Source: Pseudomonadota bacterium
GTDB lineage: Bacteria; Pseudomonadota; Gammaproteobacteria; Pseudomonadales; UBA7434
Reading direction: 5' to 3'
DNA: 64,000 nt
Assembly: GCA_036344075.1 (NCBI GenBank)
Contig: JAYYUJ010000008.1
Span: forward strand, 27,730 to 91,729
Below, one piece after another: positions 23,291-43,038 of the stretch. Each line of letters begins with the position of its first letter. The first letter of the stretch is position 1. A model generated the notes under the pieces. That model made no database searches. It saw only the letters and a program-made list of their open reading frames with translations, and was not told the DNA's origin. Made by a program: the position numbers and the translations under genes.

Positions 23291-24624
23291 ATGTCTGCTC
23301 AATCATCCACTCATTACCCCGTTTGGACTCACCGTTGGACCTATATTTTAGCCACCACTGGCGCCGCAGTTGGGCTGGGTAATATTTGGAAATTTCCTTA
23401 TATTGCTGGCGAAAATGGCGGCGGCGCCTTTGTTCTCATGTATCTGATCTGCATTATGATGTTTGGCGTGCCAATTATGATGGCTGAGGTACTGCTTGGT
23501 CGAAAAGGTCGCGCCAACCCAGTGCACGCCATGCTGTCGCAGGCACGTGCCGCCGGCGCCAGTAAGCTGTGGGCATTTATTGGTCTGATGGGCGTGGCCG
23601 CCGGGATCATGATTCTCATGTATTACAGCGTGGTGGCTGGCTGGTCGCTAGAATATGTGTTTCAAAGTGCCAGTTCAGCCTATATCGGTCAAGACGCCCA
23701 AATTATCGCTGACAGATTCGGCTATTTAGCCCAAGATAGCGACCGGCAACTGCTATGGCATAGCGTCTTTATTCTTGCCACGGCAACAATTGTTGGACTT
23801 GGGGTTACACGTGGCATTGGCAATGCCGTGAATATTTTAATGCCCATTTTATTTGCTTTGCTTTTGCTCTTGCTATGGTACGCCTTCAAAAACGGCGAGT
23901 TTCAGAAGGGCTTAAATTTTATGTTTGCCGCTGATTTTAGCAAACTGACCAGTCAATCGGTGTTAACCGCCATGGGCCATGCTTTTTTTACCCTTAGCTT
24001 AGGCATGGGAACCGTCATGGTGTACGGCTCTTATATGTCAAACGATCAATCAATTTCAAACGCAGTGATCGTTGTTGCCGGGCTAGATACGTTGATCGCC
24101 TTAATTGCCGGCATGGCTATTTTTCCACTAGTGTTTGCCAGTGGTCTGGCGCCAGGCTCTGGGCCAGGCTTATTATTTGAAACGCTGCCTATTGCCTTTT
24201 CAGGCATGTGGGGCGGTACCTTCTTTGGAACAGGATTTTTTGTTTTAGTTGCAATTGCAGCGTTAAGCTCATCGATCTCACTCATCGAGCCCGGTATCGC
24301 ATGGCTAGAAAAGCTCGGCAGTTCGCGCTTGTTGGCACTGTCGGTCTAAGCATATTATGCTGGCTAGGCGGTGTGGCAAGTATTTACTCGAGCGAGGTCT
24401 TTAATCGCTTGGACTATTTAACTGCCAATATTATGTTACCGCTAGGCGGGCTTTTAATTGCGCTGTTTGTGGGTTGGAAGGTCGGCTATACCCGGGTGCG
24501 TAAAGAGATCGATGGCTTATCGACTGGCTTATTTAACCTATGGTTTATTAGCTTGCGTTTTATCGCTCCGGCCGGCGTTTTAGTCATCTTCTATCAAGGT
24601 ATTAAAGCCAGTCTAGGTAGCTAA
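23291..24624 (+). pseudogene. Na+-dependent transporter, SNF/NSS family, interrupted by a frameshift
   Basis: The NSS signature GLGNIWKFPYIAGENGGGAF is at the N-terminus. The reading frame ends at 24349, while the C-terminal TM segments continue in another frame (ORF 24208-24624). The frames switch near GAAAAGCT at about 24308-24320. Confidence 0.7.
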
Positions 24625-25514
24625 GTTGTCTCTGGGTGCGTAACACGGCAACAATCAAGCCACGATTGAAGTCCCCGTGAAGGAAACTTTTTATTGTGCG
24701 TGACAAAGTAGAATTGCCTGCTCATATCGCGATGTTTCAGCTTTAGTGGCACCAAGCTGCCTCTTTTAAAGGCATCGGCTAGCGGAATAACGGACAAACA
24801 GCCGAGCCCTAGGCCCGCTTCAACAGCCCGTTTAATGGCCTCGGTATGCTCAAACTCCAAGTGCACATCCAGTTCATTGATTAGGCCGTGCATCGCGCGA
24901 TCAAAGGTTTGCCGTGTGCCTGAACCATGCTCACGCAGAATCCATTGGGCATTAGTTAAGTCATCATCGGTTAAAATTTTTTTATTCGCATAAGGGTGTT
25001 CTGGCGAACAAAAAATCATTAACTCATCATAACACCATGGATGCACATGAAGATCTGGGTGTGAATACTCGCCCTCTATTAAACCGACGTCCAGCTCAAA
25101 ATCCAGCACTTGCTTGGCAATATGTGCGGTATTAGCAACATGTAAGCGAACACTCACTTCAGGATAATCCCTTTTAAAACTGGCAATAATCGGTATTGCG
25201 ATGTAATTGCCGATGGTCAGCGTTGCACCAACTCGTAATCGCCCCGCGGGCATTTGCTGCTGCAAAACAACCTCGACATCCTCTGCGCCCGAGATTAAGG
25301 CCTCAGCTAAGGGGCGAAGCGATTGACCCAGCATATTGAGCCGCAATCGTTTTCCCACTCGATCAAATAGTTGCGCATCATAGCGCTCCTCTAAATCGCG
25401 GAGTGCGCCACTAGCGGCAGACTGAGACATGGATAAACTCTCAGCCGCTCGGCTTATATTTTGATAATGCGCAGTGGCAAGAAATACTTGAAGTTGACGT
25501 AGGGTAAATTTCAC
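24621..25514 (-). CDS. LysR-family transcriptional regulator (FinR-like by position, divergent from fpr)
   Basis: It has an N-terminal wHTH (LRQLQVFLATAHYQNISRAAESLSMSQSAAS) and a LysR substrate-binding domain. The divergent arrangement with fpr matches the Pseudomonas finR-fpr layout. Confidence 0.85.
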   Translation of the reverse strand: MKFTLRQLQVFLATAHYQNISRAAESLSMSQSAASGALRDLEERYDAQLFDRVGKRLRLNMLGQSLRPLAEALISGAEDVEVVLQQQMPAGRLRVGATLTIGNYIAIPIIASFKRDYPEVSVRLHVANTAHIAKQVLDFELDVGLIEGEYSHPDLHVHPWCYDELMIFCSPEHPYANKKILTDDDLTNAQWILREHGSGTRQTFDRAMHGLINELDVHLEFEHTEAIKRAVEAGLGLGCLSVIPLADAFKRGSLVPLKLKHRDMSRQFYFVTHNKKFPSRGLQSWLDCCRVTHPETT

Positions 25515-25594
25515 TTTCTGATGCCTCTAGGTTAAGCCAGATGAATGACAGCACCGTATATTTACTGAAATTCACATTGTTTTACTAAATGATA

Positions 25595-25630
25595 ATAGAT
25601 ATTATTTGATAAATAGTATCAGATATCTAT
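25595..25630. promoter_or_regulatory. Nested dyad symmetries in the LysR/fpr divergent intergenic region (candidate operator)
   Basis: An outer inverted repeat ATAGATAT (25595-25602) / ATATCTAT (25623-25630) encloses the perfect dyad TGATA-aatag-TATCA (25607-25621). Confidence 0.3.
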
Positions 25631-25753: not shown

Positions 25754-26527
25754 ATGACTAAGTTAATGACCGAAACCGTGACCGACGTCCATCATTGGAA
25801 CAACAGTTTATTTAGTTTTAAAACTACCCGAGATGCTGGCTTTCGCTTTAAAAATGGTCACTTCGTAATGGTTGGCCTTGAACATGAAGGAAAACCCCTA
25901 TTACGAGCTTACAGCATCGCAAGTGCGAATTACGAAGATGAACTAGAATTTCTTAGCATTAAAGTGCCAAATGGTCCACTGACATCGAAGTTACAGCATT
26001 TAAAAGTTGGTGATGAAGTATTAATCGGTAAAAAACCTCTGGGCACTCTGGTCACCGATGAAATGCTACCTGGAAAAAACTTATATCTACTAGGGACTGG
26101 TACTGGCTTAGCCCCTTTTATGAGTATTATCAAAGACTTTGAGGTTTATGAGCAATTCGATAAAATCATTCTCGCTCACGGGGTCAGAGAGGTATCTGAA
26201 TTGGCGTACAGCGATTACATTGAGAATGAACTGCCCCAGCACGAATATTTTGGTGAAATGGTACGTGAAAAACTGCTTTACTACCCTACTGTTACTCGAG
26301 AACCTTATAAAAATAATGGTCGTTTAACCGACCTTATGACTAGCGGTAAATTATTTCTTGACCTTGGTCTGCCAAAGCCAAGTGTAGAGGATGATCGATT
26401 TATGCTCTGTGGCAGTCCCAGTATGCTCAAAGACATGTGCGCCATCTTGGATGAGCGAGGATTTAATGAGGTGCGCAGCGGCAACCAAGGCCACTATGTG
26501 ATTGAGCGAGCCTTTGTCGAAGGTTAA
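25754..26527 (+). CDS. fpr: Ferredoxin--NADP+ reductase
   Basis: The 257-aa product has FAD-binding RAYSIAS and NADP-binding LLGTGTGLAPF, with a bacterial Fpr-type C-terminus. Confidence 0.92.
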   Translation: MTKLMTETVTDVHHWNNSLFSFKTTRDAGFRFKNGHFVMVGLEHEGKPLLRAYSIASANYEDELEFLSIKVPNGPLTSKLQHLKVGDEVLIGKKPLGTLVTDEMLPGKNLYLLGTGTGLAPFMSIIKDFEVYEQFDKIILAHGVREVSELAYSDYIENELPQHEYFGEMVREKLLYYPTVTREPYKNNGRLTDLMTSGKLFLDLGLPKPSVEDDRFMLCGSPSMLKDMCAILDERGFNEVRSGNQGHYVIERAFVEG

Positions 26528-28124: not shown

Positions 28125-29003
28125 TTAAGGCCCGCTCATAATTAAAATCCCAGCCGCCGGCAGGGCGGCCGAGCGATCAATCACACTATTAGGAACTGTC
28201 AACGCACCAATTGCTACACCACATTCATCGGCCACTAAACCATTATTTAACAGTACCTTCACCGGTGGTGAGTCAATGTATTTTTGTTGTTCACTGTTGC
28301 CGGCGACCGTATCAGAAAATAATTGCATCTCAATCAAATATGCCCCTACGGTGGGTGAACCGGTGTGACCAATGCCGGGAACGGTACAGTCGCCCATGAC
28401 GCCTTCAGAATTTTTTCCTTCAAGACAAAAATCAAGATGGGCATGAATAGCATCACCTGAGGTCACGCCCGCCGCCTGTTCTATAGGGGCCTCTAATGGG
28501 CCTTCAACCCCTGCACCTGACCAAATTGTACCCTCTGCATAAAAAGCATTCTCTTCAGCCGTGCCATTAATCACAACATCGGGTGGTATTGCACCAAAAT
28601 AACGAACCCGCTCGCCGTTAGGTGAATCATCTAGCCAACGTTGCTCATCTTTATCCCAAAAACGTAGCGAGCCAAGTGCGCGAAACCACAGCACCTCACC
28701 ACCGAGGAAATCCCCTGCCTTAACCACCCAACCAGGATCATCGGTTTTATGCGGACCGCCAGCAAAATCACCAAAATCGGCCGGCACAACCGTTCTACCA
28801 GTGCTCGCTTCGGATGGAAACTGACCGCTCTCATCAATCAGTAGTGAGCCGCCGTCTGTTCCAGCGGGATCAACATCGATGATAACATCAAAATGGCCGA
28901 AAGCATTACAGGTCGTAATCCCTTGTGCATAACTCTTTAGCACCGCCGTTGATAAAAACAGGCAGCTCACAAGTGTTAAATTGATGCCGTATTTATTAAT
29001 CAT
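28125..29003 (-). CDS. Secreted protein, paralogue 1 of an unrecognised family (H-x-H-L-D-F motif); last gene of the TBDR operon
   Basis: A signal peptide (MINKYGINLTLVSCLFLSTAVLKSYA/QG) follows the ATG at 29003, one nt after the receptor stop (TAAtATG). It shares ordered motifs with the products of 32928-33704 and 33834-34526 (ADFGDF, KTDDPGW, ALGSLRFWD..W, IHAHLDF, GAYLIEM, NNG). The ORF-track start at 29024 is probably an over-extension. Confidence 0.8.
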   Translation of the reverse strand: MINKYGINLTLVSCLFLSTAVLKSYAQGITTCNAFGHFDVIIDVDPAGTDGGSLLIDESGQFPSEASTGRTVVPADFGDFAGGPHKTDDPGWVVKAGDFLGGEVLWFRALGSLRFWDKDEQRWLDDSPNGERVRYFGAIPPDVVINGTAEENAFYAEGTIWSGAGVEGPLEAPIEQAAGVTSGDAIHAHLDFCLEGKNSEGVMGDCTVPGIGHTGSPTVGAYLIEMQLFSDTVAGNSEQQKYIDSPPVKVLLNNGLVADECGVAIGALTVPNSVIDRSAALPAAGILIMSGP

Positions 29004-29004
29004 A

Positions 29005-31314
29005 TTAAAATTGATACCGAACACCGAACACTATTTCTCTGCCAGGCTCTGGGGTAAAGTTTCTTAAAAAAGACGTTGATTTTCGAATATCTTCATCCAA
29101 TAAATTTTTCATCTGTAAAAAAACAATCATTTCTTGATGAAAGGGACCGTCAAAATGAAGAATGTAAGACGCATAGGCATTGAGTAGCTTATAGGCATCT
29201 GTTGGTACTTCATTATCGCCAATATTTTTCTGTGCAGCGACAAAATTGTAACGCAACTCCGAATAGAAGAGGCCGTTCCCCCACTGAAAGCCAAGCCCTC
29301 TGCGGGCCGGCGGCATCCTCGGTAAGTCCTCGCTGCCGGTCAGCCTTCCTCGAACATGATCAGCAAATAACTCTATTTGAAATTCACCACCTCGAACGTC
29401 GATAGGCGGTAATGTCCACTGCCATTCATAACCGGTCAGCGTTGCATCATGCTGCTGATAATCAAAGACAGCAATGCATTCTTCTAATCGAACACAGGCA
29501 TTACGGAAAACGTTATCAGAGGTATCAAACAATCCATTGATCGCTCTTTTTTTTTGATAAATAAAATCATCTGCTTCGGTATAAAAGATGGCGCTGCTCA
29601 TATCACCAAAAGCACCTTGCCACTCCCAGCGCAAATCAATGCCCTGAAACTTTTCAGCCTCAGGTGGAGAATCATTCAATTGACTATCAAACAGCAATAA
29701 GCCGATATCATATGAACGTGTCGCCAAGTGTGGGCCTAGTGAGAGTAATTCTTGTATTTCAGGCACTCGCTGTGCCGAATTTAATCCAAATACTAAACGC
29801 TGTTGATCGGATACATCCACGCTTAACGCTGAGGAAAAAGTATAGCTTTGATAGCTAATCGGCTCATGCATAAACTGGGTATTGTAGGGCAATAATCCAG
29901 CAGTTAACTGTCGCTGTAATATCTCTTGCCACTCATAGCGACAACCTAACTCAAACAGGCCTATGGCTAATGGAAATTGATCATAGAAGAAAACACCGAT
30001 CGAGCGCTGATCCGCTGCTGGAATAAAATCCTCACCGCCACCTAGTGAGCGCATATTCTCTGCAGAAAACGCGCGATCTACCCACTGTAGCCCCATCTTG
30101 CCGCTATGCTGTGTGTTAAAACGATGCAGTAAGTGATGATTGATTTCAGCTTTAACTTCAAACACATCATTGATAAACCGAGTGCCGTTTATAAATTTTT
30201 TTGTTACTGGGTCTTGCTCAAACTCAAGGTGCTGATATTTAATGTTTCCTATCGTTAAGCGTACGTCTTTTAAGCTAGGATTACTAATCTTATAACCGAA
30301 CTTAAATAGATGACGCTCCTGCTCCAAATCGATACGAACTCTCGACTGAATCACAATATTTTCGCCAACGGGGTGGCTATGACTGTGCCCCGGCGAATCC
30401 GCTGGCTCGGTATGCGCACCTGGCGGGATGCCATACTCACTGTTAATCATCGTGCTTGAACCGCCAATAAAAAAATCATCATCGACATAACTTAACGCCA
30501 ATGAACCGCTATCGGTATCTGAATCCGTATTTAATACCGTGCCAAAAGTATTATCCGAATTGCTGATAGCAAATACTTGCTCGATAGCCTGCTCTTCAAT
30601 GGCTAGCGCAGGAATGCTCATATCTTCAGCGCTTCTCGTAAAGCCATCAACCTGAAAAACCCACTTTCCCATTTCGGTTTTAAGCTTAGAAATGGCAGTT
30701 TCACGATGATGGTCGTTGTTTAATTCTTTTCTAAGCTCGAAGACTGAAGACAAAGATTGATTATCTAAGGCTTCAGCAATTCGCCCATTAAGCACCTCAA
30801 CCGTGCCACCCACCGCATTATTCCCATGCAAAACCGTCGCAGGACCTTTGAGTACCTGAATACTTTTAGCCAAGGCCGGCTCTATCGCCGTCGCATGATC
30901 AGGACTAATAGAGGAAGCATCCCAAGCTCCGACACCATCTTCACTAAGACGCACACGTACACCAGAGAGACCGCGCAATACAGGCAGACCAACGCCTGGG
31001 CCATAAGAAGCATTGTGCACCCCCAGTTCATTGGCCAACGTATCACCTAAAGTACCGCCTTGTTTACTGAGCAGTTCATCATCCGACAGCTCAATCGTAC
31101 TCAAACCTAAAGCCGTTTTTTGCTCTTGCTTTTGAGCATTAATCGTCACTTCTTCCATCGCGTTTTCAGCGGTCGTCATTGAAGAAAAAAAAGCGGCAAT
31201 GCAAATAGCAATGGATACACCATGGCTTAATCGCGGCGGTAGAAATGAAAGTGAGAAGATCTGCTCTAGTTGGATATTCGGCATAAGCATTGGACTCAAA
31301 ATAGTGCTCGACAA
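29005..31314 (-). CDS. TonB-dependent outer-membrane receptor with His-rich loop (ZnuD-like by context)
   Basis: A signal peptide is followed by a plug region (EEVTINA..., LRGLSG, VLKGPATVLHGNNAVGG) and a C-terminal beta-barrel ending in the terminal Phe (GVRYQF). There is an internal HTEPADSPGHSHSHP segment. The start may be one of the internal Met codons (31290 or 31284), which would remove the overlap with the upstream gene. Confidence 0.9.
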   Translation of the reverse strand: MSSTILSPMLMPNIQLEQIFSLSFLPPRLSHGVSIAICIAAFFSSMTTAENAMEEVTINAQKQEQKTALGLSTIELSDDELLSKQGGTLGDTLANELGVHNASYGPGVGLPVLRGLSGVRVRLSEDGVGAWDASSISPDHATAIEPALAKSIQVLKGPATVLHGNNAVGGTVEVLNGRIAEALDNQSLSSVFELRKELNNDHHRETAISKLKTEMGKWVFQVDGFTRSAEDMSIPALAIEEQAIEQVFAISNSDNTFGTVLNTDSDTDSGSLALSYVDDDFFIGGSSTMINSEYGIPPGAHTEPADSPGHSHSHPVGENIVIQSRVRIDLEQERHLFKFGYKISNPSLKDVRLTIGNIKYQHLEFEQDPVTKKFINGTRFINDVFEVKAEINHHLLHRFNTQHSGKMGLQWVDRAFSAENMRSLGGGEDFIPAADQRSIGVFFYDQFPLAIGLFELGCRYEWQEILQRQLTAGLLPYNTQFMHEPISYQSYTFSSALSVDVSDQQRLVFGLNSAQRVPEIQELLSLGPHLATRSYDIGLLLFDSQLNDSPPEAEKFQGIDLRWEWQGAFGDMSSAIFYTEADDFIYQKKRAINGLFDTSDNVFRNACVRLEECIAVFDYQQHDATLTGYEWQWTLPPIDVRGGEFQIELFADHVRGRLTGSEDLPRMPPARRGLGFQWGNGLFYSELRYNFVAAQKNIGDNEVPTDAYKLLNAYASYILHFDGPFHQEMIVFLQMKNLLDEDIRKSTSFLRNFTPEPGREIVFGVRYQF

Positions 31315-32891
31315 TTAGATCTAAAATCTAAGGCCTGAGTATAGTCATAGCCTATGGAGACACCATTACGACCGGCTAGCAATGCGGGCGATTCGACTGA
31401 TAATCGAAAGTCATTATTTAATTGGTTAATAAACAAGGGGTCAGTATTTTTTTGCGAATCGACATCCGGCCTAGTGCTGAGCTGAGGATGAGATTCAACA
31501 TTTTGCCAATTATCCATATCTCGAAAAACATCTTCTAATGGGCCGCCTGCATCTAATCGCCAGCTCAGATAATCTGCTGGCGCAAAATATAAATTATAAT
31601 CACTGTACGCAATACTGTTTTCTAATGAAGAGTTTTCCGGCGACCGTGTCACCAATAGATTCACGTCAAATCCCTCTAAGGTTGGATGAAAGATATTATT
31701 AAATATCTCAACATTTTTTACCCCCGAAATATCAATCACAATCGAAGCAGTATCAATGAAATTATTATTGAATAAACAGAATGATTCTGACTGGTATTCA
31801 CTGCCTCCTAGATCAAGCAAAATCGCAGAATCCGCTTTTTCAGAGTCTTCAGGCATACGAAATAAATTACCCGACACATCTACAGACTTGAATAGCCCTG
31901 TTTTAATTTCATCATTTGCTGAGGTATCGCTTATTTGGTTATGGAAGTTAACGGGCTGTTTGACTTGCGTGAAATTATTATTATGTATTTGAATATTCGC
32001 TACGGGCTCTTCAATATTGAGCGAATACGCAGGACTACCCAACCCCTGCGCATTAATAATGACGCCACTGTCTAAATTGGTAAATGTATTACCATCGATC
32101 ACGATGTTAGACAAGCCGCGGCCAGTTCTAATCAATTCATTCTCTTCGTTGGATAACTGGCTAAAGACATCGCTAATTTCATTATTCCGAATGACTGTAT
32201 CACTGACCCCCATTAGCCGAATACCGCCAACATACTTTTCTCCATAAACGTGATGGATACGGTTGCCCTCTAAGGTGATATTGTTAGTTTCGCAGGCGCC
32301 GTTGACTGAACTACTTATGCCGGCCTCATTAACCTTTGTAATTTCGATATTACGTACAATGATGTGACTCACACAGTCTAACAGCAAGCCCAAGGTGATA
32401 TCATTCCTGTTACTCGCAAAGCTTTCTTGCTGCTGATTAATCACAGGCCGTGAAGTGACATCACCCTCAATAATAATAGGTGCAGAGATTGTGCCGCTGT
32501 TCGTTACCCGGTATCCGCGGAGTTTTTTTAAAAGAACGCCATCAGCATCGAATACCTGCTTAATAATATTATCAGTATGGTAAGGATGCCCTTCATTGTG
32601 TTGGACCACTAGCACATCGCCAGGTCTCAGTTGATCCAGTGCGTATTGAAGCGATTGAAAGGGCAAAGTGATGCCGTCGTTAGTATCGTCACCACTGACA
32701 TTATTGACGAATAATCTGGCGCCAGTTACCGGGCCGCCTGAATTCACTACGGTCTGTGTGCCGCCGCTGACATCGCCTCCACAACCACTCAAGATAACCG
32801 CAGGCAGGATTAAAGCTCCTATCATTAAGGCCCAAATAGCCTTTCTAAAACAAGTCTTGATTATTCGATAAATAGCAGATGGAGTCATCAC
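31296..32891 (-). CDS. Right-handed parallel beta-helix repeat lipoprotein
   Basis: The lipoprotein signal peptide carries the lipobox ILSGC. The N-terminal pattern is FVNNVSGDDTNDG..PFQSLQYALDQLRPGD. Recurring beta-helix-type repeats follow (GNRIHHV, RNNEISDV, DGNTFTNL, HNNNFTQV, FNNNFID). Confidence 0.8.
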   Translation of the reverse strand: MMTPSAIYRIIKTCFRKAIWALMIGALILPAVILSGCGGDVSGGTQTVVNSGGPVTGARLFVNNVSGDDTNDGITLPFQSLQYALDQLRPGDVLVVQHNEGHPYHTDNIIKQVFDADGVLLKKLRGYRVTNSGTISAPIIIEGDVTSRPVINQQQESFASNRNDITLGLLLDCVSHIIVRNIEITKVNEAGISSSVNGACETNNITLEGNRIHHVYGEKYVGGIRLMGVSDTVIRNNEISDVFSQLSNEENELIRTGRGLSNIVIDGNTFTNLDSGVIINAQGLGSPAYSLNIEEPVANIQIHNNNFTQVKQPVNFHNQISDTSANDEIKTGLFKSVDVSGNLFRMPEDSEKADSAILLDLGGSEYQSESFCLFNNNFIDTASIVIDISGVKNVEIFNNIFHPTLEGFDVNLLVTRSPENSSLENSIAYSDYNLYFAPADYLSWRLDAGGPLEDVFRDMDNWQNVESHPQLSTRPDVDSQKNTDPLFINQLNNDFRLSVESPALLAGRNGVSIGYDYTQALDFRSNCRALF

Positions 32892-32927
32892 AGTTTTTAA
32901 TGCCTGGCCTAATAAAGAGTAACGAAG

Positions 32928-33704
32928 CTACCTTACTATAGATTTACGCGTCTTCTCGTAGTAAGCAAAAATAAACAGTAAACTCGCTAATAGAAATAAT
33001 GCGCCATTCGGCATGGGAACAGCAACAGCCTCTGGCTCTGGCTCTGGCTCTGGCTGAGACGTGAGTGCATTAATGGCTTGAGCAAAGGCAGCCTCACTCA
33101 TTTGATAATTGAATGCAATTCGCACAGGCTCTGAGGTTAAGTGGGTCTCAATAGTGCCACCAGGTGTATCGGTCCCAAAAAACTCTATATCAATCATATA
33201 GGCGCCAATTGTAGGATCGCCTGAGCCTAGATTTTCGATAAAGAAATCTATGTGCTGGTGTAAAGAGCCATTGCCATTAATTTGAGCAATAGCGCCCAGT
33301 GGATTGCTAACGCCTGAGTCAGTGATGATCGAATAGGAATACACCACATCTCGAATTTTCACTCTTTCCTGATCAGCTACCTCGTTAACCCATGCTTGAC
33401 CATTCCAAAACCACAACGAGCCCACTACACGGTAGTAAAGAAAGCTATTTGGGCTAAAAGTGTTAGTCAATGACTGGAAACCAGGCTGATCAGTTTTATT
33501 TGGATCACTAAAAGATCCAAAAGTATTTGGAAATAAAGACTTTCCTGTTGTTAAGTCAGTGATGATAGGGATATTGGTTTCAGAATTTATTTCGCTTGCT
33601 GCCACCTGGTTATCAACCAATGTAAGCCATATGTCGGCATGTTGAGCATTACTTAACGGCACGAGGCTGACAAAAAATGCCATTGCAAACAATGAAATCT
33701 TCAT
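32928..33704 (-). CDS. Secreted protein, paralogue 2 of the unrecognised family, with (PE)4 linker and PEP-CTERM-like tail
   Basis: The signal peptide MKISLFAMAFFVSLVPLSNA/Q follows the ATG at 33704. Family motifs are present (NKTDQPGF, VGSLWFWNGQAW, LHQHIDF, GAYMIDI). The C-terminus is VPMPNGALFLLASLLFIFAYYEKTRK. The ORF-track extension to 33818 would translate through a terminator hairpin. Confidence 0.8.
   Translation of the reverse strand: MKISLFAMAFFVSLVPLSNAQHADIWLTLVDNQVAASEINSETNIPIITDLTTGKSLFPNTFGSFSDPNKTDQPGFQSLTNTFSPNSFLYYRVVGSLWFWNGQAWVNEVADQERVKIRDVVYSYSIITDSGVSNPLGAIAQINGNGSLHQHIDFFIENLGSGDPTIGAYMIDIEFFGTDTPGGTIETHLTSEPVRIAFNYQMSEAAFAQAINALTSQPEPEPEPEAVAVPMPNGALFLLASLLFIFAYYEKTRKSIVR
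33032..33055 (-). repeat. Hexanucleotide tandem repeat (CTGGCT)x4 encoding a (PE)n linker
   Basis: Four perfect tandem CTGGCT units read on the minus strand as QPEPEPEPEA, immediately before the C-terminal anchor of paralogue 2. Confidence 0.9.
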
Positions 33705-33750
33705 GAATTTGAGAAAATTTTTTGACACTTCTTTACCAATAGATTCAAGA

Positions 33751-33790
33751 AATAAAGAAAAAACCCGAAGCACAATACTTCGGGTTTTTA
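33751..33790 (-). terminator. Rho-independent terminator after the His-rich protein gene
   Basis: The minus strand reads AAACCCGAAG-tattgtg-CTTCGGGTTT followed by TTTTTCTTTATT: a 10-bp GC-containing stem with a T tract, about 45 nt after the TAG at 33834-33836. Confidence 0.8.
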
Positions 33791-33833
33791 TTCTAGCCGC
33801 AATCGCTAAAGAGATCACGCTTTCAAGGTGCTA

Positions 33834-34526
33834 CTAGGCTTTAAGACGGCGTCCTAGTAATAAAGAACCTAAACCAGAAGCTAGGAATAACCAAGCCGCT
33901 GGTATTGGAACTGCTGATACCGGACCAGCGTCGAAGGATGCCTCATCCATACCATTGTTAAAAACGATGAAGATAGATTCAGAAGACCAACCATTAGCTG
34001 ATGACAACGCTTGATCAGAGTAACCCTCGAGAATAAATTCAATTAAGAAGGCCTGGGCTGACGCACTTGGATCAATGAAAAATTCAAGGTGCTCATGAAC
34101 ACCACCTTCATCATCTGACATGCCAATTAGACCCAAAGAAAAAGGTTGTACTCCATAATCATGGCTTTCTAGTGTTAGTAAACTGTTAGTTGAGGCAGTC
34201 CAGCTAGAGCCATCCCATTCTTTGAGGTTGCTTTGCATATTGTAAGCAAGGTAATTGTATGCCCCAAATGGGCCATCTTCTAGAATAATACCAGGCTCAT
34301 CTGTCCCGTATGCACCAAGCTCGAAATCGTTAAAGTCTGCCTCAAATAATTTAGCTTCGCCTGCTAAAGCTTCGCCTGTTTCAACGTGTATTTCAAAGCC
34401 TGTCTCAGCTGCAGAAATAATATCGCCTCCATGACCTTCATGGCCGCCATGCCCATGATCGTCTTCTTCAGCATTTGCTGAAAAAGCCAATACAGAAAAC
34501 AGGCCTAGTAGAAGTAAATTTTTCAT
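33834..34526 (-). CDS. Secreted His-rich protein, paralogue 3 of the unrecognised family, with VPLPA-CTERM-like anchor
   Basis: The signal peptide is MKNLLLLGLFSVLAFSANA/EE. The mature N-terminus is EEDDHGHGGHEGHGGD. Family motifs are present (GTDEPG, VHEHLEF, AFLIEF, NNG). The C-terminus is VPIPAAWLFLASGLGSLLLGRRLKA. GGAGA sits upstream of the ATG. Confidence 0.85.
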   Translation of the reverse strand: MKNLLLLGLFSVLAFSANAEEDDHGHGGHEGHGGDIISAAETGFEIHVETGEALAGEAKLFEADFNDFELGAYGTDEPGIILEDGPFGAYNYLAYNMQSNLKEWDGSSWTASTNSLLTLESHDYGVQPFSLGLIGMSDDEGGVHEHLEFFIDPSASAQAFLIEFILEGYSDQALSSANGWSSESIFIVFNNGMDEASFDAGPVSAVPIPAAWLFLASGLGSLLLGRRLKA

Positions 34527-34587
34527 TTTATTGATTCTCCAGATTTTTTTGAGTAAATATTTTTAGTTTTTGTCAATCATAACTGGG

Positions 34588-34618
34588 AATGATACAACAT
34601 ATCATTTGGGTGTTTCAA
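34588..34618 (-). promoter_or_regulatory. Zur-box-like palindrome overlapping a sigma-70-type promoter of the His-rich protein gene
   Basis: The minus strand reads TTGAAA-(18 nt)-TATCAT. The dyad AATGATA-tgttg-TATCATT (34588-34606) covers the spacer and the -10. It matches about 16 of 21 positions of the gammaproteobacterial Zur consensus (AAATGTTATAnTATAACATTT) as I recall it. It lies 62-80 nt upstream of the ATG, and zur is the next gene upstream. Confidence 0.6.
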
Positions 34619-34747
34619 GCACAAATTGGCCAATTAATGATCTTTAAGAATCTTAAATCAAACACCCACCCATTAAGTTCGGGGCACTGAGACAAAAAAG
34701 CTAAGCTAAAGAAAAATATATTGGAGAAACTCAGCGGGAAAAATTGA

Positions 34748-35209
34748 TTATTTTTGACACTTGCCGCACAAACCGTGCAACTCAAGCTGTTGATTATGCA
34801 TTGAAAAACCGGATTTCAGTATATCAGCCCTCAACTGCTCCAAAGTATGCTTTTGGATTCCGGCCTCGGACACCGACTGACAATTATCACAAATAAGAAA
34901 TTGAGGTAAATCATGCGCATGATTGCAGTTGATGTGCTCGCAAGCCGTGTATTTATTAACCGAATTTAATCGGTGAGCGAGCGTTTCTTCAACCAGAAAA
35001 TTCAGCATGCGATAGGCCGACATCGCGGTAAGCGACTCACTGTATCGCGCATGATACAAGTCGATCAACTCATAGGCCGATACCGGTGATGGAGCCTCTA
35101 ATAGCAAGGCCAATGCTCGTTTACGTTTTACAGTCAACCTCACACCAGCATCGCGGCATATCAACTCGGCATTTTGCAAAGTCTTATCAGTTGCAGCGGA
35201 TTGATTCAT
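34748..35209 (-). CDS. zur: Zinc uptake regulator (Fur family)
   Basis: The 153-aa product is collinear with E. coli Zur (AE.IC...GVRLT..R...L.LL, SAY.L.DL, Y..C, FLICD.C, HGLCG.C), including the C-x-x-C pairs. Confidence 0.85.
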   Translation of the reverse strand: MNQSAATDKTLQNAELICRDAGVRLTVKRKRALALLLEAPSPVSAYELIDLYHARYSESLTAMSAYRMLNFLVEETLAHRLNSVNKYTACEHINCNHAHDLPQFLICDNCQSVSEAGIQKHTLEQLRADILKSGFSMHNQQLELHGLCGKCQK

Positions 35210-38708: not shown

Positions 38709-40595
38709 CTACACGACTTCAGCAAGGTCACCTTTAGCCTCTAACCACTTCTTCCTATCGGGGGCACGTTTCTTAGCCAATAGCATATCGAGCAATGTCT
38801 CGGTGCCATCACCGGCCCCCGCGGTTAGCTGCACTAAACGACGGGTATCTTTATCCATGGTAGTTTCACGCAACTGCAAGGGATTCATTTCACCCAAACC
38901 CTTAAAACGCTGAACGTTAACCTTGCCACGTTTTTTCTCGGCTTTAATACGGTCGAGAATGCCGGTTTTTTCAGCATCGTCAAGAGCGTAGTAGACGTTA
39001 TCGCCAATATCGATTCGGTACAGGGGTGGCATGGCGACATACACATGACCCGCAGAAACTAGCGGTCGAAAGTGACGCATAAACAGTGCGCAAATTAAAG
39101 TAGCGATATGTAGACCATCAGAGTCAGCGTCGGCAAGGATACAAATTTTATGGTAGCGAAGACCAGACAAATCGTTTGAGGCTGGATCAATCCCCATCGC
39201 AACGGCAATATTATGAATTTCGTCGGAGGCCAGTATTTCCTGTGAATCAACTTCCCATGCATTTAAAATTTTACCCCGTAAAGGCAAAATAGCCTGGAAA
39301 CTTCTATCCCGCGCCTGCTTAGCCGAGCCGCCCGCCGAATCCCCCTCGACTAAAAATAATTCACCTAACTCTGGGTCGTCACTTGAGCAATCGGCTAATT
39401 TTCCGGGCAGAGCTGGACCTTGAACAATACGCTTACGGGCTACTTTTTTTGCTTTTCTTGATCGTGCTTGCGCGCTATTAATGGCTAGCTCAGCAATTAA
39501 GTCAGCTTCTTCTGTGTGTTGATTCAACCAGAGGCCTAGCGCATCTTTAGCGACCCCAGAAATGAACGGAGCGCATTCTCGCGATGACAAGCGTTCTTTC
39601 GTTTGGCCTGAAAATTGTGGGTCTGTTAATTTTGCAGACAAGACATAACTGCAGCGATCCCAGATATCGTCTGCTGTTAACTTAAGGCCTTTAGGCAGTA
39701 GATTTCTAAATTCACAATACTCGCGGATCGCATCTAACATACCAGTTCGCAAGCCATTCACATGCGTACCACCCTGAGCTGTGGGAATTAAATTAACATA
39801 ACTTTCAGCGACGATATCACCGCCCTCTGGCAACCACTGCACAGCCCAATCAACCGCTTCTGTCTCACCACTAAAGCTACCCATGAAGGGCAATTCGGGT
39901 AATACTGGCCAACCCTGCGTAGCCGATAAAATATAATCCTTTAAGCCGTCTTCATAGAACCACTCTTCTTTCTCGCCACTTTTCTCATCATGAAAAGTAA
40001 TGCGTAAACCTGGGCATAGCACAGCTTTCGCTCGCAATACATGGTGCAAGCGTCGGATAGAAAATTTGACTGAATCAAAGTACTGCTTATCGGGCCAAAA
40101 TCGGACAGCGGTACCAGTATTCCTTTGACCGACAGTGCCAGTTTGCTTCAATTTACTTTTCAACTTGCCATCACCAAAGGTAATATTAAACTTCTTGGCA
40201 TCGCGTTTAATATCAACTTCTAACTTGGTTGATAAAGCATTAACTACCGACACTCCAACGCCATGTAAGCCACCTGAAAATTGATAATTTTTATTTGAAA
40301 ATTTACCGCCCGAATGAAGCTTAGTCAAAATCAGCTCGACCCCTGACATTTTATGTTCAGGGTGAATATCAACGGGCATACCACGACCATTATCAACTGC
40401 CGATAAAGAACCGTCTTTATGGGCCACTACATGAATGGTGTCGGCATAGCCGGCTAGAGCTTCATCAACCGAATTATCAATAATTTCTTGAGCTAAATGG
40501 TTAGGCCGTTGCGTATCGGTATACATACCGGGTCGTTTTCGGACTGGCTCTAAACCGGTCAAAACCTCAATTGAATCGGCGTTATATTCAGACAT
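38709..40595 (-). CDS. parE: DNA topoisomerase IV subunit B
   Basis: The 628-aa product has the GHKL ATPase (EIIDNSVDEA, GLHGVG) and Toprim (LVEGDSAGGS, PLRGKILN) motifs. The parE-yqiA-cpdA-yqiB synteny matches E. coli. Confidence 0.95.
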   Translation of the reverse strand: MSEYNADSIEVLTGLEPVRKRPGMYTDTQRPNHLAQEIIDNSVDEALAGYADTIHVVAHKDGSLSAVDNGRGMPVDIHPEHKMSGVELILTKLHSGGKFSNKNYQFSGGLHGVGVSVVNALSTKLEVDIKRDAKKFNITFGDGKLKSKLKQTGTVGQRNTGTAVRFWPDKQYFDSVKFSIRRLHHVLRAKAVLCPGLRITFHDEKSGEKEEWFYEDGLKDYILSATQGWPVLPELPFMGSFSGETEAVDWAVQWLPEGGDIVAESYVNLIPTAQGGTHVNGLRTGMLDAIREYCEFRNLLPKGLKLTADDIWDRCSYVLSAKLTDPQFSGQTKERLSSRECAPFISGVAKDALGLWLNQHTEEADLIAELAINSAQARSRKAKKVARKRIVQGPALPGKLADCSSDDPELGELFLVEGDSAGGSAKQARDRSFQAILPLRGKILNAWEVDSQEILASDEIHNIAVAMGIDPASNDLSGLRYHKICILADADSDGLHIATLICALFMRHFRPLVSAGHVYVAMPPLYRIDIGDNVYYALDDAEKTGILDRIKAEKKRGKVNVQRFKGLGEMNPLQLRETTMDKDTRRLVQLTAGAGDGTETLLDMLLAKKRAPDRKKWLEAKGDLAEVV

Positions 40596-40632
40596 AATTT
40601 TTCACTACTGCTATCAAGTTAAGTAAATATTG

Positions 40633-41211
40633 CTATGTGATTAAAAAATCAGTAATCGCCGGTAGCCATCGAGCAAAATTTTGAAAGCTGTGATCGCCAC
40701 CGTATTCAATCACCGTCCTACAACGGCGATAATACGCAGTGGCCTGACTGTAATCGAGTGTTTCATCGCCGGTTTGCAATAGTACCCATCGCTGCTTAGG
40801 CTGACGAATATCATCAACACTTAGAGCCTGTAACTCTATCATATGTTGTTTACTAAGCGTGTAAGTTTCACCCGTATAATCATTGCGCTGTGGACCAAGG
40901 TAGTCAACTAGCAGATGATCAGGGTAAATAGCGGGATTGATCAGCACAGCTTTACAATCAAACTGCTGGGCTAAATAATTCGCATAATAACCACCCAGCG
41001 AGCTGCCAATTAGCAGCGGTTGCTCAGCGCCGGCAATCAACGACTGAAGCTGAGAAATAGCTAGCGCAGGAGCATGGGGCAATTGCGGGACTTGATAGTC
41101 GATAAGGGCTTGTCCTGCGATTTGGCAATGCTGAAAGTAACGACCACAAAGTTGAGCTTTATGGGACTGCGGCGAACTGTTGTAGCCGTGTAAATAAAAA
41201 ATGGTCTTCAA
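40633..41211 (-). CDS. yqiA: YqiA-family esterase (alpha/beta hydrolase)
   Basis: The 192-aa product begins IFYLHGYNSSP and has the nucleophile elbow GSSLGG. Its position next to parE is conserved. Confidence 0.8.
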   Translation of the reverse strand: MKTIFYLHGYNSSPQSHKAQLCGRYFQHCQIAGQALIDYQVPQLPHAPALAISQLQSLIAGAEQPLLIGSSLGGYYANYLAQQFDCKAVLINPAIYPDHLLVDYLGPQRNDYTGETYTLSKQHMIELQALSVDDIRQPKQRWVLLQTGDETLDYSQATAYYRRCRTVIEYGGDHSFQNFARWLPAITDFLIT

Positions 41212-41248
41212 GGCCGCATCATCTCAGTGAACAAACGCAAGCAGTCAA

Positions 41249-42100: not shown

Positions 42101-42116
42101 AAATTTAGACTCATTA

Positions 42117-42734: not shown

Positions 42735-42886
42735 TCATATTTGATTGTAGGGATTGTTAGCCGACTCACATCAACCAAGCAGTCGAAACTTACGAACCGC
42801 GGGATCGCCCATTAGGGCTAAAAACCAAAGGGTAAAGACTGTCGTATATTTGATGCAAGCACTGGCAGAGGTAAATTATAACAATA

Positions 42887-42917
42887 TTGCTTAAAGAGGC
42901 CTAGCAGCCCGTATAAT
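42887..42917 (+). promoter_or_regulatory. Possible sigma-70 promoter for tolC
   Basis: It reads TTGCTT-(19 nt)-TATAAT, about 120 nt upstream of the tolC ATG. The spacer is longer than optimal. Confidence 0.3.
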
Positions 42918-43038
42918 GTAAGCGGTTTGGTCTAAAACGGTAGTATTACTTCCACTTAACCTTAAATATTGTTGGCGCCGTCTAGCTTATCGGTCTGTTA
43001 AAATAATCATTCTATCGGATTTTTAGTAAGGATTTTTC

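What the first reader, a model, noticed from the sequence alone, without database searches (positions are those of the whole stretch)
28125..35209. Candidate undescribed Zur-controlled surface metal-capture and TonB-dependent uptake system
On the minus strand, a clear Zur orthologue (34748-35209) is followed by five co-directional genes. In order they encode a His-rich secreted protein (33834-34526), a paralogue of it (32928-33704), a lipobox-bearing beta-helix protein (31296-32891), a TonB-dependent receptor with an internal GHSHSHP loop (29005-31314), and a third paralogue (28125-29003). Junctions among the last four genes are tight (36 nt or less, or overlapping; TAAtATG between the receptor and the last gene), which implies co-transcription. 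A Zur-box-like dyad overlaps the -10 of the first gene. The accessory proteins do not resemble components of the zinc systems I can recognise (ZnuABC, ZinT, AdcA-type binding proteins, Cnt-type opine metallophore loci). The locus sits in an accessory block between the conserved genes dusC and parE. Together these points suggest a relay in which anchored or secreted metal-binding proteins feed a ZnuD-like receptor.
Basis: partly seen in the sequence, partly recalled or inferred. Interest (0 to 1): 0.88.

Follow-up and report, generated by a model that had tools for sequence, protein, structure and literature searches.

The report
Zur-linked zinc-capture proteins with ZnuD-like receptor
A marine gammaproteobacterium carries a zinc-starvation gene cluster in which a ZnuD-like outer-membrane receptor is paired with three copies of an uncharacterised secreted protein that probably binds metal, plus a beta-helix lipoprotein; it resembles the recently described ZepA protein "zincophore" system but uses a different protein family.

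Summary

- **The paralogues.** The three are true paralogues of a family with no Pfam or NCBIfam model, no PDB relative by sequence or fold, and only "hypothetical protein" names. An exhaustive profile search finds 552 clusters.
- **Family signature.** x-H-x(1-2)-D directly after the signal peptide, and a 99-100% conserved H-x-H strand, which suggests a 3His/Asp metal site.
- **Genomic partners.** In 14 of the 15 genomes whose contig reaches far enough, the family sits beside a ZnuD-like TonB-dependent receptor. It usually also has a Zur-like gene and a conserved Zur-type palindrome nearby, and in some lineages cobW, ZrgA or true zepA.
- **Location.** One relative is the passenger domain of an autotransporter, and others carry PKD or dockerin modules or bona fide PEP-CTERM tails. 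This favours an extracytoplasmic, surface location.
- **Relation to ZepA.** It is not the ZepA/all3515 family, but it co-occurs with zepA wherever a ZnuD-like receptor is present.

Best reading: a Zur-repressed protein relay that captures zinc and hands it to the receptor. Metal binding, localisation and regulation are inferred, not shown. I rate it a new variant of a known kind.

The parts
34748..35209 (-). zur-like Fur-family repressor gene (153 aa)
   Evidence: Pfam FUR 9.3e-10. NCBIfam Zur NF008646 1.2e-26 (93 bits, below the 167 cut-off). Best PDB hits are Zur structures 7dh7 and 4mtd rather than Fur. Orthologue adjacent to the module in L004-L006, L008-L010 and L017.
34588..34606 (-). 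Zur-box-like palindrome AATGATATGTTGTATCATT overlapping the -10 (TATCAT, 34589-34594) of the gene A promoter; the -35 TTGAAA lies at 34613-34618
   Evidence: Best promoter match in the region (10 of 12). Unique in the window. Identical or near-identical box upstream of the first paralogue in 8 related loci, with canonical variants (TGTTAT..ATAACA) in more distant loci and upstream of cobW in Marinibactrum.
33834..34526 (-). Paralogue A (230 aa): signal peptide; His/acidic-rich mature N-terminus EEDDHGHGGHEGHGGD (34422-34469); HEH strand (34080-34097); VPIPAA...GRRLKA PEP-CTERM/VPLPA-like tail (33837-33911)
   Evidence: No Pfam or NCBIfam family covers the globular part. The His-rich N-terminus varies between orthologues, with 2-5 His.
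33759..33789 (-). Intrinsic-terminator-like hairpin plus T-run between A and B
   Evidence: 14-pair stem followed by a T-run. An equivalent GC-rich hairpin plus T-run, with different sequence, is present after gene A in all 9 type-1 loci.
32928..33704 (-). Paralogue B (258 aa): signal peptide; mature N-terminus QHADI (33630-33644); HQH strand (33243-33260); VPMP plus hydrophobic plus basic tail (32931-33020)
   Evidence: Only 18 clusters of close homologues, none of them named.
31296..32891 (-). Right-handed beta-helix lipoprotein (531 aa), lipobox LSGC at 32781-32792
   Evidence: Pfam Beta_helix 2.5e-6. AF2 model pLDDT 82.7. Foldseek gives only generic beta-helix hits (GH136, PL9, RbmB), TM at most 0.45 and about 13% identity. 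Cys37 is invariant and no His is conserved. Present in all assessable E-subfamily loci and absent from distant versions.
29005..31314 (-). ZnuD-like TonB-dependent receptor (769 aa) with conserved His loop GIPPGAHTEPADSPGHSHSHP (30370-30432)
   Evidence: Plug plus barrel domains. NCBIfam ZnuD 2.7e-64 but 218 bits, far below the 950 cut-off. The only strong PDB hit is ZnuD 4rdr. The loop is conserved in 18 orthologues and aligns to the ZnuD HDDDNAHAHTH segment.
28125..29003 (-). Paralogue E (292 aa), start codon 1 nt after the receptor stop: GHFD (28884-28898); HAH strand (28428-28445); conserved short tail LPAAGILIMSGP (28128-28163)
   Evidence: AF2 model pLDDT 89.7, pTM 0.82, beta-sandwich. 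No PDB fold match (best E 7.7e-3, TM at most 0.26). Lies directly downstream of the receptor in 14 of 15 loci; L016 is cut at the contig end.

Best explanation
This is a Zur-repressed outer-membrane zinc-acquisition module.

**Regulation.** When zinc is scarce, Zur leaves the palindrome that covers the -10 of gene A. A is then made in excess, because a conserved terminator lets only part of the transcription continue into B, the beta-helix lipoprotein gene, the receptor gene and E.

**Capture.** A, B and E are Sec-exported beta-sandwich proteins of one uncharacterised family. They bind Zn(II) at a site built from a His and an Asp at the very start of the mature chain (x-H-x(1-2)-D) and an invariant H-x-H strand. 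A carries an additional flexible His-rich N-terminal arm.

**Location.** A and B carry PEP-CTERM/VPLPA-like tails and are sorted to the cell surface or released. E is translationally coupled to the receptor and acts as its dedicated partner at the outer membrane.

**Hand-over and import.** The proteins pass zinc to the His-rich extracellular loop of the ZnuD-like TonB-dependent receptor, which imports it into the periplasm for an inner-membrane importer encoded elsewhere.

**The lipoprotein.** The beta-helix lipoprotein is a lineage-specific accessory. Most likely it is an outer-membrane docking or scaffold protein, or a glycan-cleaving enzyme that gives the proteins access through the cell's polysaccharide layer.

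**What is shown:** gene content, paralogy, conservation of the module, conserved motifs, the conserved operator-like box and terminator, and co-occurrence with zinc-regulon genes.

**What is inferred:** zinc binding, the identity of the ligands, localisation, direction of transfer, Zur control, and the role of the lipoprotein.
For: **The module is conserved.**
- E-subfamily members occur in only 15 of 185,579 species genomes.
- In all assessable cases they have a ZnuD-like receptor immediately upstream, a beta-helix lipoprotein, and one or two further paralogues.

**Link to zinc.**
- An adjacent Zur-like regulator lies nearby in 10 of the 15 loci. The window protein is closest to solved Zur structures.
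- The palindrome is conserved upstream of the first paralogue, while the flanking intergenic DNA is not.
- Its variants grade into the canonical TGTTAT-N-ATAACA Zur box. One such box lies upstream of cobW beside the Marinibactrum module.

**Distant members keep the same company.**
- L019: receptor, autotransporter member, FUR, two members, cobW.
- L020 and L022: FUR, receptor, two or three members.
- L021: a lone member beside ZrgA-ABC and cobW.
- In 24 metagenomic zepA loci of at least 10 kb, 9 carry two members plus a ZnuD-like receptor. The other 15 carry neither.

**Putative metal site.**
- H-x-H is 99-100% conserved over 148 diverse representatives.
- H-x-D or H-x-G-D sits right after the signal-peptide cleavage site in nearly all full-length members.
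- A orthologues have a His-rich mature N-terminus, as do ZepA, ZnuA and ZinT according to PMC10957091.

**Extracytoplasmic or surface location.**
- The family domain is the N-terminal passenger of an autotransporter (PATR plus PF03797). It is also fused to PKD, Big_9 and dockerin modules.
- Burkholderiales members pass the TIGR02595 PEP-CTERM cut-off.
- Conserved Cys pairs are present.

**Receptor.** The His loop is conserved and aligns with the ZnuD His/Asp segment.

**Precedent.** ZepA is a Zur-repressed PEP-CTERM exoprotein that binds about 1.5 Zn and is proposed to feed a TBDT (PMC10957091).
Against: - No experiment bears on this family.
- The regulator and the receptor both score below NCBIfam's equivalog cut-offs for Zur and ZnuD.
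- A's tail is only a sub-threshold VPLPA/PEP-CTERM match, and the tails of B and E match no sorting-domain model. No exosortase was looked for genome-wide.
- No promoter or Zur box was found in front of B, and a terminator follows A. Zinc control of the receptor genes therefore rests on read-through.
- Microbulbifer and Marinibactrum loci lack an adjacent zur.
- The lipoprotein has no conserved His and resembles carbohydrate-active enzymes.
Confidence: 0.6

Rival explanations
1. Periplasmic hand-off model. The receptor takes up free or loosely complexed zinc by itself. A and B are inner-membrane-anchored through their C-terminal helix, and E is soluble in the periplasm. All three act as periplasmic metallochaperones that collect zinc from the receptor and pass it to an inner-membrane importer, in the way ZinT or AztD serve ZnuA or AztC.
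For: - The topology reads literally as a type-I membrane protein: signal peptide plus C-terminal hydrophobic helix plus basic cluster.
- The tails of B and E match no sorting-domain model, and A is sub-threshold.
- E's tail is too short to be a transmembrane or exosortase signal.
- ZnuD works without a partner in Neisseria (general knowledge, not tested here).
Against: - One homologue is an autotransporter passenger and others carry PKD or dockerin modules, which places the domain outside the cell.
- Burkholderiales members have bona fide PEP-CTERM tails.
- The analogous ZepA was found experimentally in the exoproteome and not in the periplasm.
- No ZnuA-type gene accompanies the module in any locus examined.
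Confidence: 0.17
2. Same architecture but a different cargo. The proteins capture another metal (Cu, Co, Cd or Ni) or a metal-ligand complex. The N-terminal x-H site would act like an amino-terminal Cu/Ni-type site, and the Fur-family regulator would sense that metal.
For: - His at position 2 of the mature chain is reminiscent of N-terminal Cu(II)/Ni(II) motifs (inference).
- The regulator is below the Zur equivalog cut-off.
- In sea water Zn, Co and Cd are used interchangeably by some enzymes (general knowledge).
- MerC-like genes occur in L019 and L021.
Against: - The regulator is much closer to Zur than to Fur or PerR structures.
- The box grades into the canonical Zur box.
- The neighbours cobW/COG0523, ZrgA and zepA are zinc-regulon markers.
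- The receptor's only structural relative is ZnuD.
Confidence: 0.1
3. PUL-like glycan utilisation. The beta-helix lipoprotein is a polysaccharide lyase or hydrolase, the paralogues are glycan-binding proteins, and the receptor imports oligosaccharides. The zur gene is a chance neighbour.
For: - Foldseek places the lipoprotein nearest GH136, PL9, PL6 and RbmB enzymes.
- The weak fold hits for E are lectin or adhesin beta-sandwiches.
- The Microbulbifer locus lies among cellulase and LPMO genes.
Against: - Those fold matches are generic (TM at most 0.45 for the lipoprotein; nothing below 1e-3 for E).
- The receptor has no SusC/RagA-type hit and there is no SusD-like gene.
- The beta-helix gene is absent from distant versions of the module, which keep the receptor, the paralogues and FUR.
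- The Zur-type operator is conserved.
- CAZyme neighbours are seen only in Microbulbifer.
Confidence: 0.04

Closest known systems
ZepA / All3515 of Anabaena sp. PCC 7120 (NCBIfam NF040463, 'all3515 family Zur-repressed PEP-CTERM protein'; PMC10957091)
   Same: - Sec signal peptide; His/acidic-rich start of the mature chain; beta-sandwich of about 230-290 aa; PEP-CTERM-type tail.
- Zur-type palindrome over the promoter.
- Neighbours include FUR, a TBDT and COG0523.
- Rare and patchy distribution.
- Proposed to hand zinc to an outer-membrane TonB-dependent transporter.
- The two families are physically adjacent in many loci.
   Different: - No detectable homology of the globular part. NF040463 does not hit A, B or E. 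hhalign gives probability 0.2% with the single ZepA sequence, and 30% (E 5.5e-4) over the last two strands only with full profiles and tails removed.
- The ZepA motif H-X2-9-H-[FY]-H is absent. This family instead has an N-terminal H-x-D plus H-x-H.
- This family tracks the ZnuD-like receptor perfectly in the sampled loci, whereas cyanobacterial zepA loci have neither.
- The window genome has three paralogues, no zepA in the 64 kb, and an extra beta-helix lipoprotein.
ZnuD of Neisseria meningitidis (PDB 4RDR; NCBIfam NF038289)
   Same: - Best and only strong structural relative of the receptor (1.9e-28).
- Plug plus 22-strand-type barrel domains.
- His-rich extracellular segment at the aligned position.
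- Zur-linked.
   Different: - Only 218 bits against the 950-bit equivalog cut-off.
- The alignment to the solved structure is low-identity throughout.
- From general knowledge, ZnuD is described as acting alone, without dedicated secreted partner proteins.
Protein-mediated metal delivery to TonB-dependent receptors: HasA-HasR hemophore, azurin-OprC (copper; cited in PMC10957091), and T6SS zinc effectors such as YezP or TseZ with HmuR (PMC8602904 lists these)
   Same: A secreted small metal- or cofactor-binding protein is encoded with, or works with, a specific TonB-dependent receptor. The scavenger is made in excess over the receptor.
   Different: Unrelated protein families and export routes (T1SS, T6SS). 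No tri-paralogue set, and no beta-helix lipoprotein.
Right-handed beta-helix proteins (Pfam Beta_helix / Pel9A-like; GH136 lacto-N-biosidase, PL9 lyases, RbmB; NosD of the N2O-reductase copper-assembly system)
   Same: Fold and Asn-ladder repeats, plus the C-terminal DPxF...SPA cap motif. NosD, recalled from memory and not tested here, is a precedent for a beta-helix acting in metal-centre trafficking rather than glycan cleavage.
   Different: - About 13% identity to any solved enzyme, and catalytic residues could not be mapped.
- It is a lipoprotein with a long flexible tether.
- Its close homologues (42 clusters, all at least 40% identical) are found only with this module.

Membership tests
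ZepA / all3515 family (NF040463) | Sequence match to the family model, or at least 35% identity over at least 75% coverage to ZepA (the paper's criterion) | tested here: not met
   NCBIfam scan of A, B and E at E<=0.1 gives no NF040463 hit, whereas a true homologue in L022 scores 255.7 bits. BLASTP of A against ZepA finds nothing significant. hhalign gives 0.2% and 30%.
ZepA / all3515 family (NF040463) | Zinc-site motif H-X2-9-H-[FY]-H | tested here: not met
   A, B and E have G-x-[IV]-H-x-H-[LI]-[DE]-F with only two His in that strand. The third conserved His is at the mature N-terminus.
ZepA / all3515 family (NF040463) | N-terminal Sec signal peptide and C-terminal PEP-CTERM domain | tested here: inconclusive
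   Signal-peptide-like N-termini with AxA-type cleavage sites were read from the sequences. A's tail scores 14.5 bits against VPLPA-CTERM (cut-off 25.35). The tails of B and E have no hit. Burkholderiales members of the same family pass TIGR02595.
ZepA / all3515 family (NF040463) | Zur-binding-site-like palindrome over the promoter | tested here: met
ZepA / all3515 family (NF040463) | Binds zinc, is secreted, and supports growth at low zinc | not testable with these tools
   Requires ICP-MS/ITC, fractionation and mutants.
ZnuD-type zinc TonB-dependent receptor (NF038289) | Plug plus TonB-dependent beta-barrel architecture | tested here: met
   PF07715 2.6e-13 and PF00593 2.1e-20.
ZnuD-type zinc TonB-dependent receptor (NF038289) | Score at or above the curated equivalog cut-off (950 bits) | tested here: not met
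   218 bits. It is the top-scoring NCBIfam model and covers the full length, so the receptor is ZnuD-like but not a ZnuD equivalog.
ZnuD-type zinc TonB-dependent receptor (NF038289) | His/Asp-rich extracellular loop used for zinc capture | tested here: met
   GIPPGAHTEPxDSPGHSHSHP is conserved in 18 orthologues and aligns to the ZnuD segment ...HDDDNAHAHTH. That it faces outward is inferred from the ZnuD alignment.
Zur (zinc uptake regulator, NF008646) | Fur-family fold that is closer to Zur than to Fur or PerR | tested here: met
   7dh7 3.6e-24 and 4mtd 2.7e-19, against Fur about 5e-6 and PerR 3.8e-6. However, 93 bits is below the 167-bit equivalog cut-off.
Zur (zinc uptake regulator, NF008646) | Zinc-dependent binding to the operator | not testable with these tools
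   Only the conserved palindrome and gene adjacency are available.
Polysaccharide utilisation locus (SusC/SusD type) | SusC-like receptor with adjacent SusD-like lipoprotein and CAZymes | tested here: not met
   Neither the receptor nor its neighbours hit a SusC/RagA or SusD model. CAZyme neighbours occur only in Microbulbifer.
Exosortase/PEP-CTERM sorting system | An exosortase (EpsH/Xrt) gene in the genome | not tested
   Only about 40 of the window's ORFs were scanned and none is an exosortase. The rest of the genome is not available.

The most novel reading that the evidence does not exclude
The family is a previously unrecognised class of protein zincophore or co-receptor with a new beta-sandwich fold.
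- Its metal site is formed by the first residues of the mature chain (x-H-x-D) clamped onto an H-x-H strand.
- It is the obligate partner of a ZnuD-like receptor clade across Gamma- and Betaproteobacteria.
- In this lineage it has diversified into a three-step relay: A, an abundant His-armed scavenger; B; and E, a receptor-bound acceptor carrying a novel short C-terminal docking tail.
- The relay is organised on an outer-membrane beta-helix lipoprotein.

If so, this would be the receptor-proximal component that the ZepA work could not identify.
Probability: 0.35. Interest if true: 0.8.

Novelty: new variant of a known kind. Interest (0 to 1): 0.66.

Why it matters
Zinc is vanishingly scarce in surface sea water, and how marine heterotrophs scavenge it is poorly known. 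The only described protein-based zinc scavenger, ZepA (2024), lacks an identified receptor or hand-over mechanism.

This family appears to be the component that travels with the receptor. It co-occurred with a ZnuD-like TonB-dependent transporter in every sampled locus but one (L021, a lone member). In some genomes it sits between that transporter and zepA.

That gives a concrete, testable system for protein-to-receptor zinc transfer, built around:
- a three-paralogue set;
- a defined candidate metal site;
- a conserved operator.

It would also give names to several hundred "hypothetical" proteins, and it suggests markers of zinc stress for marine metatranscriptomics. The beta-helix lipoprotein and E's short conserved tail are further open questions.

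Tried and rejected
- **Known-family assignment of A, B and E.** Pfam and NCBIfam at E<=0.1 gave nothing for the globular parts. A PDB profile search found nothing below E 0.7. Foldseek of a confident model found nothing below 1e-3, with TM at most 0.26. Source names are all "hypothetical protein".\n- **ZepA homology.** Rejected as membership. With richer profiles, the apparent 97% hhalign probability was driven by the shared PEP-CTERM tail. It fell to 30% once the tails were trimmed.\n- **NCBIfam 'FxDxF' and other PEP-CTERM families.** Only the tails match.\n- **PUL interpretation.** Rejected; see the rival explanations.\n- **A second Zur box or promoter in front of B, or in front of zur.** None within 5 mismatches, and no convincing promoter.\n- **Structured RNA.** Rfam gives no hit in the whole window.\n- **Metal ligands in the beta-helix protein.** No conserved His; only D92, Y104, Q153, R225 and two Cys.\n- **Literature.** Four full-text searches found only the ZepA paper as relevant.\n- **Ligand proximity in the AF2 model.** Could not be checked, because coordinates are not exposed by the tools.

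Full report
**1. The observation**

The six minus-strand ORFs are at the stated coordinates.

- **Regulator (34748-35209).** It has a FUR domain. Its best NCBIfam model is Zur (1.2e-26), but at 93 bits it is below the 167-bit equivalog cut-off. Against solved structures it is far closer to Zur (7dh7 3.6e-24; E. coli Zur 4mtd 2.7e-19) than to Fur or PerR (about 5e-6).
- **Receptor (29005-31314).** It has Plug and barrel domains. ZnuD is its top NCBIfam model (2.7e-64; 218 bits against a 950-bit cut-off) and its only PDB hit below 1e-10 (4rdr, 1.9e-28).
- **Beta-helix protein (31296-32891).** It matches Pfam Beta_helix and has an LSGC lipobox whose Cys is invariant in 45 homologues.
- **Small proteins A, B and E.** A (33834-34526), B (32928-33704) and E (28125-29003) are true paralogues: A-B 8e-12, B-E 1e-23, A-E 2e-6.
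- **Dyad.** AATGATATGTTGTATCATT (34588-34606) covers the -10 of the best sigma-70 match in the region, TTGAAA-18-TATCAT at 10 of 12. It is unique in the window, against 0.06 expected.
- **An added feature.** A 14-pair hairpin with a T-run lies between A and B (33759-33789).

**2. The three paralogues belong to an unnamed family**

- No Pfam or NCBIfam model covers their globular parts.
- Word-indexed searches found 81 clusters for E and 18 for B. All carry no name or only "hypothetical protein", and come mostly from marine Pseudomonadales/Cellvibrionales MAGs, Microbulbifer and Marinibactrum.
- An exhaustive HMMER profile search of 1.84 billion representatives found 552 clusters at E<=1e-3, of which 229 are at 1e-10 or better and 89 at 1e-30 or better. 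The sampled members are again unnamed.
- An AlphaFold2 model of E is confident (pLDDT 89.7, pTM 0.82) and is a beta-sandwich with a few short helices.
- Foldseek against the PDB gives nothing below E 1e-3, with TM at most 0.26. A PDB profile search gives nothing.

**3. Family signature**

- Across 148 diverse representatives, the H-x-H strand is 99-100% conserved and a P-G is 100% conserved. Two Trp residues and a G-A-Y are conserved at 92-97%.
- In 100 of the 148, an H-x-D-[IVLAFM] motif lies within the first 75 residues, usually directly after the predicted signal-peptidase site (for example SNA|QHADIW). Most of the rest have H-x-G-D-[IV].
- In the E subfamily, H37, D39, H187 and H189 are invariant and four Cys are conserved or nearly so.
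- A orthologues extend the N-terminus with two to five further His residues, for example EEDDHGHGGHEGHGGD.
- I read this as a 3His/1Asp metal site plus a flexible His arm. The spatial proximity of the four residues could not be verified.

**4. The module is conserved and linked to zinc**

A scan of one genome per species (185,579 species) found E-type genes in 15 loci. Mapping the six window proteins onto them shows two layouts:

- **Type 1:** zur-A-B-BH-receptor-E, all co-directional, in Cellvibrionales/Pseudomonadales MAGs. The closest, NP74 and UBA1963, also share the flanking PTP and dusC genes.
- **Type 2:** BH divergent from [one A/B-like paralogue]-receptor-E, in Microbulbifer, Marinibactrum and others. 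Three of these loci have a further paralogue divergent from a Zur-like gene.

The receptor lies directly upstream of E in all 14 assessable loci, and BH is present in all of them. The Marinibactrum locus has two cobW genes alongside.

*The operator.*
- The palindrome is identical or differs by one base upstream of the first paralogue in eight loci, whose flanking intergenic DNA is otherwise unalignable. It is duplicated in several of them.
- L005 carries a hybrid form (AATGTTATGTTGTATCATT).
- More distant loci carry ATTGATATGTTATAACATT or ATTGTTATATTATAACATT. In Marinibactrum, AATGTTATGTTATAACAAT lies upstream of cobW.
- The box therefore belongs to the TGTTAT-N-ATAACA Zur-box family. The comparison with published Zur boxes rests on PMC10957091 S1 File and on general knowledge.

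*The terminator.* A GC-rich hairpin plus T-run follows gene A in all nine type-1 loci, with different sequences. A is therefore probably expressed well above the downstream genes.

**5. Distant relatives point the same way, and towards the cell surface**

- **L019:** a ZnuD-like receptor is followed 4 nt later by a 1209-aa autotransporter. Its N-terminal passenger domain is a member of this family (PATR repeats plus PF03797). FUR, two further members, cobW, MerC and a DUF3299-ABC cluster follow.
- **L020 (Roseateles) and L022:** FUR, a receptor, and two or three members, some with a tail that passes the TIGR02595 PEP-CTERM cut-off.
- **L021:** a lone member beside a ZrgA-ABC cluster and cobW.
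- Other members are fused to PKD, Big_9 or dockerin modules.

These architectures argue that the domain works outside the cytoplasmic membrane, and most likely at or beyond the outer membrane.

**6. Relation to ZepA**

*What is published.* A full-text search led to Sarasa-Buisan et al. 2024 (PMC10957091).
- ZepA/All3515 of Anabaena is Zur-repressed, has a Sec signal peptide, a His/acidic mature N-terminus and a PEP-CTERM tail, and is found in the exoproteome.
- It binds about 1.5 Zn and is needed at low zinc. The authors propose that it delivers zinc to a TBDT.

*Homology tests.* I took the ZepA sequence from the paper's S2 Fig.
- A, B and E do not match it by BLASTP.
- They do not match the NCBIfam all3515 model NF040463. 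A true homologue in L022 scores 255.7 bits against that model.
- hhalign against the single ZepA sequence gives a probability of 0.2%.
- With a 55-sequence ZepA profile built from metagenomic loci, the apparent 97% probability came from the shared PEP-CTERM tail. After trimming signal peptides and tails, 30% (E 5.5e-4) remained, over the last two strands only.
- The ZepA motif H-X2-9-H-[FY]-H is absent.
- This is therefore a different family, and at most a very remote relative.

*Co-occurrence.* The two families are physically linked.
- The L022 cluster has a true zepA next to two members.
- Of 24 metagenomic zepA loci of at least 10 kb, 9 carry two members plus a ZnuD-like receptor. The other 15 (cyanobacterial type) carry neither.
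- The new family therefore tracks the receptor, not zepA.
- It is probably among the paper's unnamed "other PEP-CTERM proteins"; that identification is my inference.

**7. The receptor loop and the lipoprotein**

- The segment GIPPGAHTEPxDSPGHSHSHP is conserved in 18 receptor orthologues. In the pairwise alignment it falls on the ZnuD segment containing HDDDNAHAHTH.
- The lipoprotein model (pLDDT 82.7) is a right-handed beta-helix behind a flexible roughly 15-residue tether.
- Foldseek gives only generic beta-helix matches (GH136, PL9, PL6, RbmB, tailspikes), with TM at most 0.45 and about 13% identity.
- Residues conserved across 45 homologues include C37, D92, Y104, Q153, C173, C200, R225, W444 and W462, but no His.
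- Its close homologues (42 clusters, at least 40% identical) appear only with this module. It is absent from the betaproteobacterial and zepA-type versions.
- Its role is unresolved. A scaffold or co-receptor, or an enzyme that opens the polysaccharide layer, are the options I consider most likely.

**8. Mechanism, rivals and confidence**

- **Best-supported reading (0.60).** A Zur-repressed relay in which exported family proteins capture Zn(II) and hand it to the ZnuD-like receptor's His loop for TonB-driven import. A is the abundant scavenger and E the receptor-coupled partner.
- **Main rival (0.17).** A and B are inner-membrane-anchored and E is periplasmic, so all three are chaperones acting after the receptor. 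The autotransporter, PKD and PEP-CTERM relatives and the ZepA precedent argue against this, but A's tail is only a sub-threshold sorting-domain match and the tails of B and E match nothing.
- **A different cargo metal (0.10) and a PUL-like role (0.04)** are less likely, for the reasons listed under the rival explanations.

**9. Open points**

- E ends in a conserved 12-residue tail, LPAAG[IV]LI[MI]xG[PEY]. It looks like the first half of A's tail without the rest of the helix or the basic cluster.
- No promoter or box precedes B.
- No exosortase or inner-membrane zinc importer was seen in the part of the window that I annotated.

**10. Verdict**

The finding is real and coherent, and its main interpretation survives testing. 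It is not categorically new, because ZepA (2024) established the idea of a Zur-controlled secreted zinc-binding protein working with a TBDT. The new elements are:
- an uncharacterised family with no detectable fold relative;
- its strict coupling to a ZnuD-like receptor clade;
- the three-paralogue plus beta-helix-lipoprotein architecture.

I rate it a new variant of a known kind, with interest 0.66.

Noticed in passing
window 23291-24624 (+): A sodium:neurotransmitter-symporter (SNF) family gene is split into two overlapping ORFs (23291-24349 and 24208-24624). The reading frame changes near 24300-24340, so this is either a frameshifted pseudogene or an assembly error.
   Followed up: partly
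window 25588-25606, between LysR (24621-25514, -) and a ferredoxin-NADP-reductase-like gene (25754-26527, +): A second Fur-family-type palindrome, AATAATATCTATTATCATT, with 4 mismatches to the Zur-type box. Similar boxes sit at the syntenic position in L006 (13387) and L017 (13390). It may be a Fur or Zur site for the divergent pair.
   Followed up: no
window 28128-28163 (C-terminus of E), and all E orthologues: A conserved 12-residue C-terminal tail, LPAAG[IV]LI[MI]xG[PEY]. It resembles a truncated VPLPA/PEP-CTERM signal without the basic cluster, and its function is unknown.
   Followed up: partly
L019 8001-11630: An autotransporter whose passenger begins with a domain of the new family. It is encoded 4 nt after a ZnuD-like receptor and next to FUR, two more family members and cobW. 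This is a different way of displaying the same domain at the surface.
   Followed up: partly
L020 5370-7655 and L022 4670-6853: In the Burkholderiales-type loci, a 727-761-aa protein with no Pfam hit lies directly downstream of the receptor, in the position that E occupies in the window. It was not examined further.
   Followed up: no
window 17864-19420 (+): A PhoA-type alkaline phosphatase lies about 9 kb from the module; by general knowledge this is a zinc-dependent enzyme. It is probably coincidental.
   Followed up: no
window 48105-49313 (-): A 402-aa ORF with a retropepsin-like aspartyl protease domain (PF13975/PF13650) in a locally AT-rich stretch, GC 0.385 at 48-50 kb.
   Followed up: no
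window 38709-44502: An E. coli-like conserved block, tolC - DUF1249 (yqiB-like) - cpdA-like - yqiA-like - parE, with parC at 14918-17182. The zinc module and its PTP, CoA-transferase and epimerase neighbours lie between dusC and this block.
   Followed up: partly
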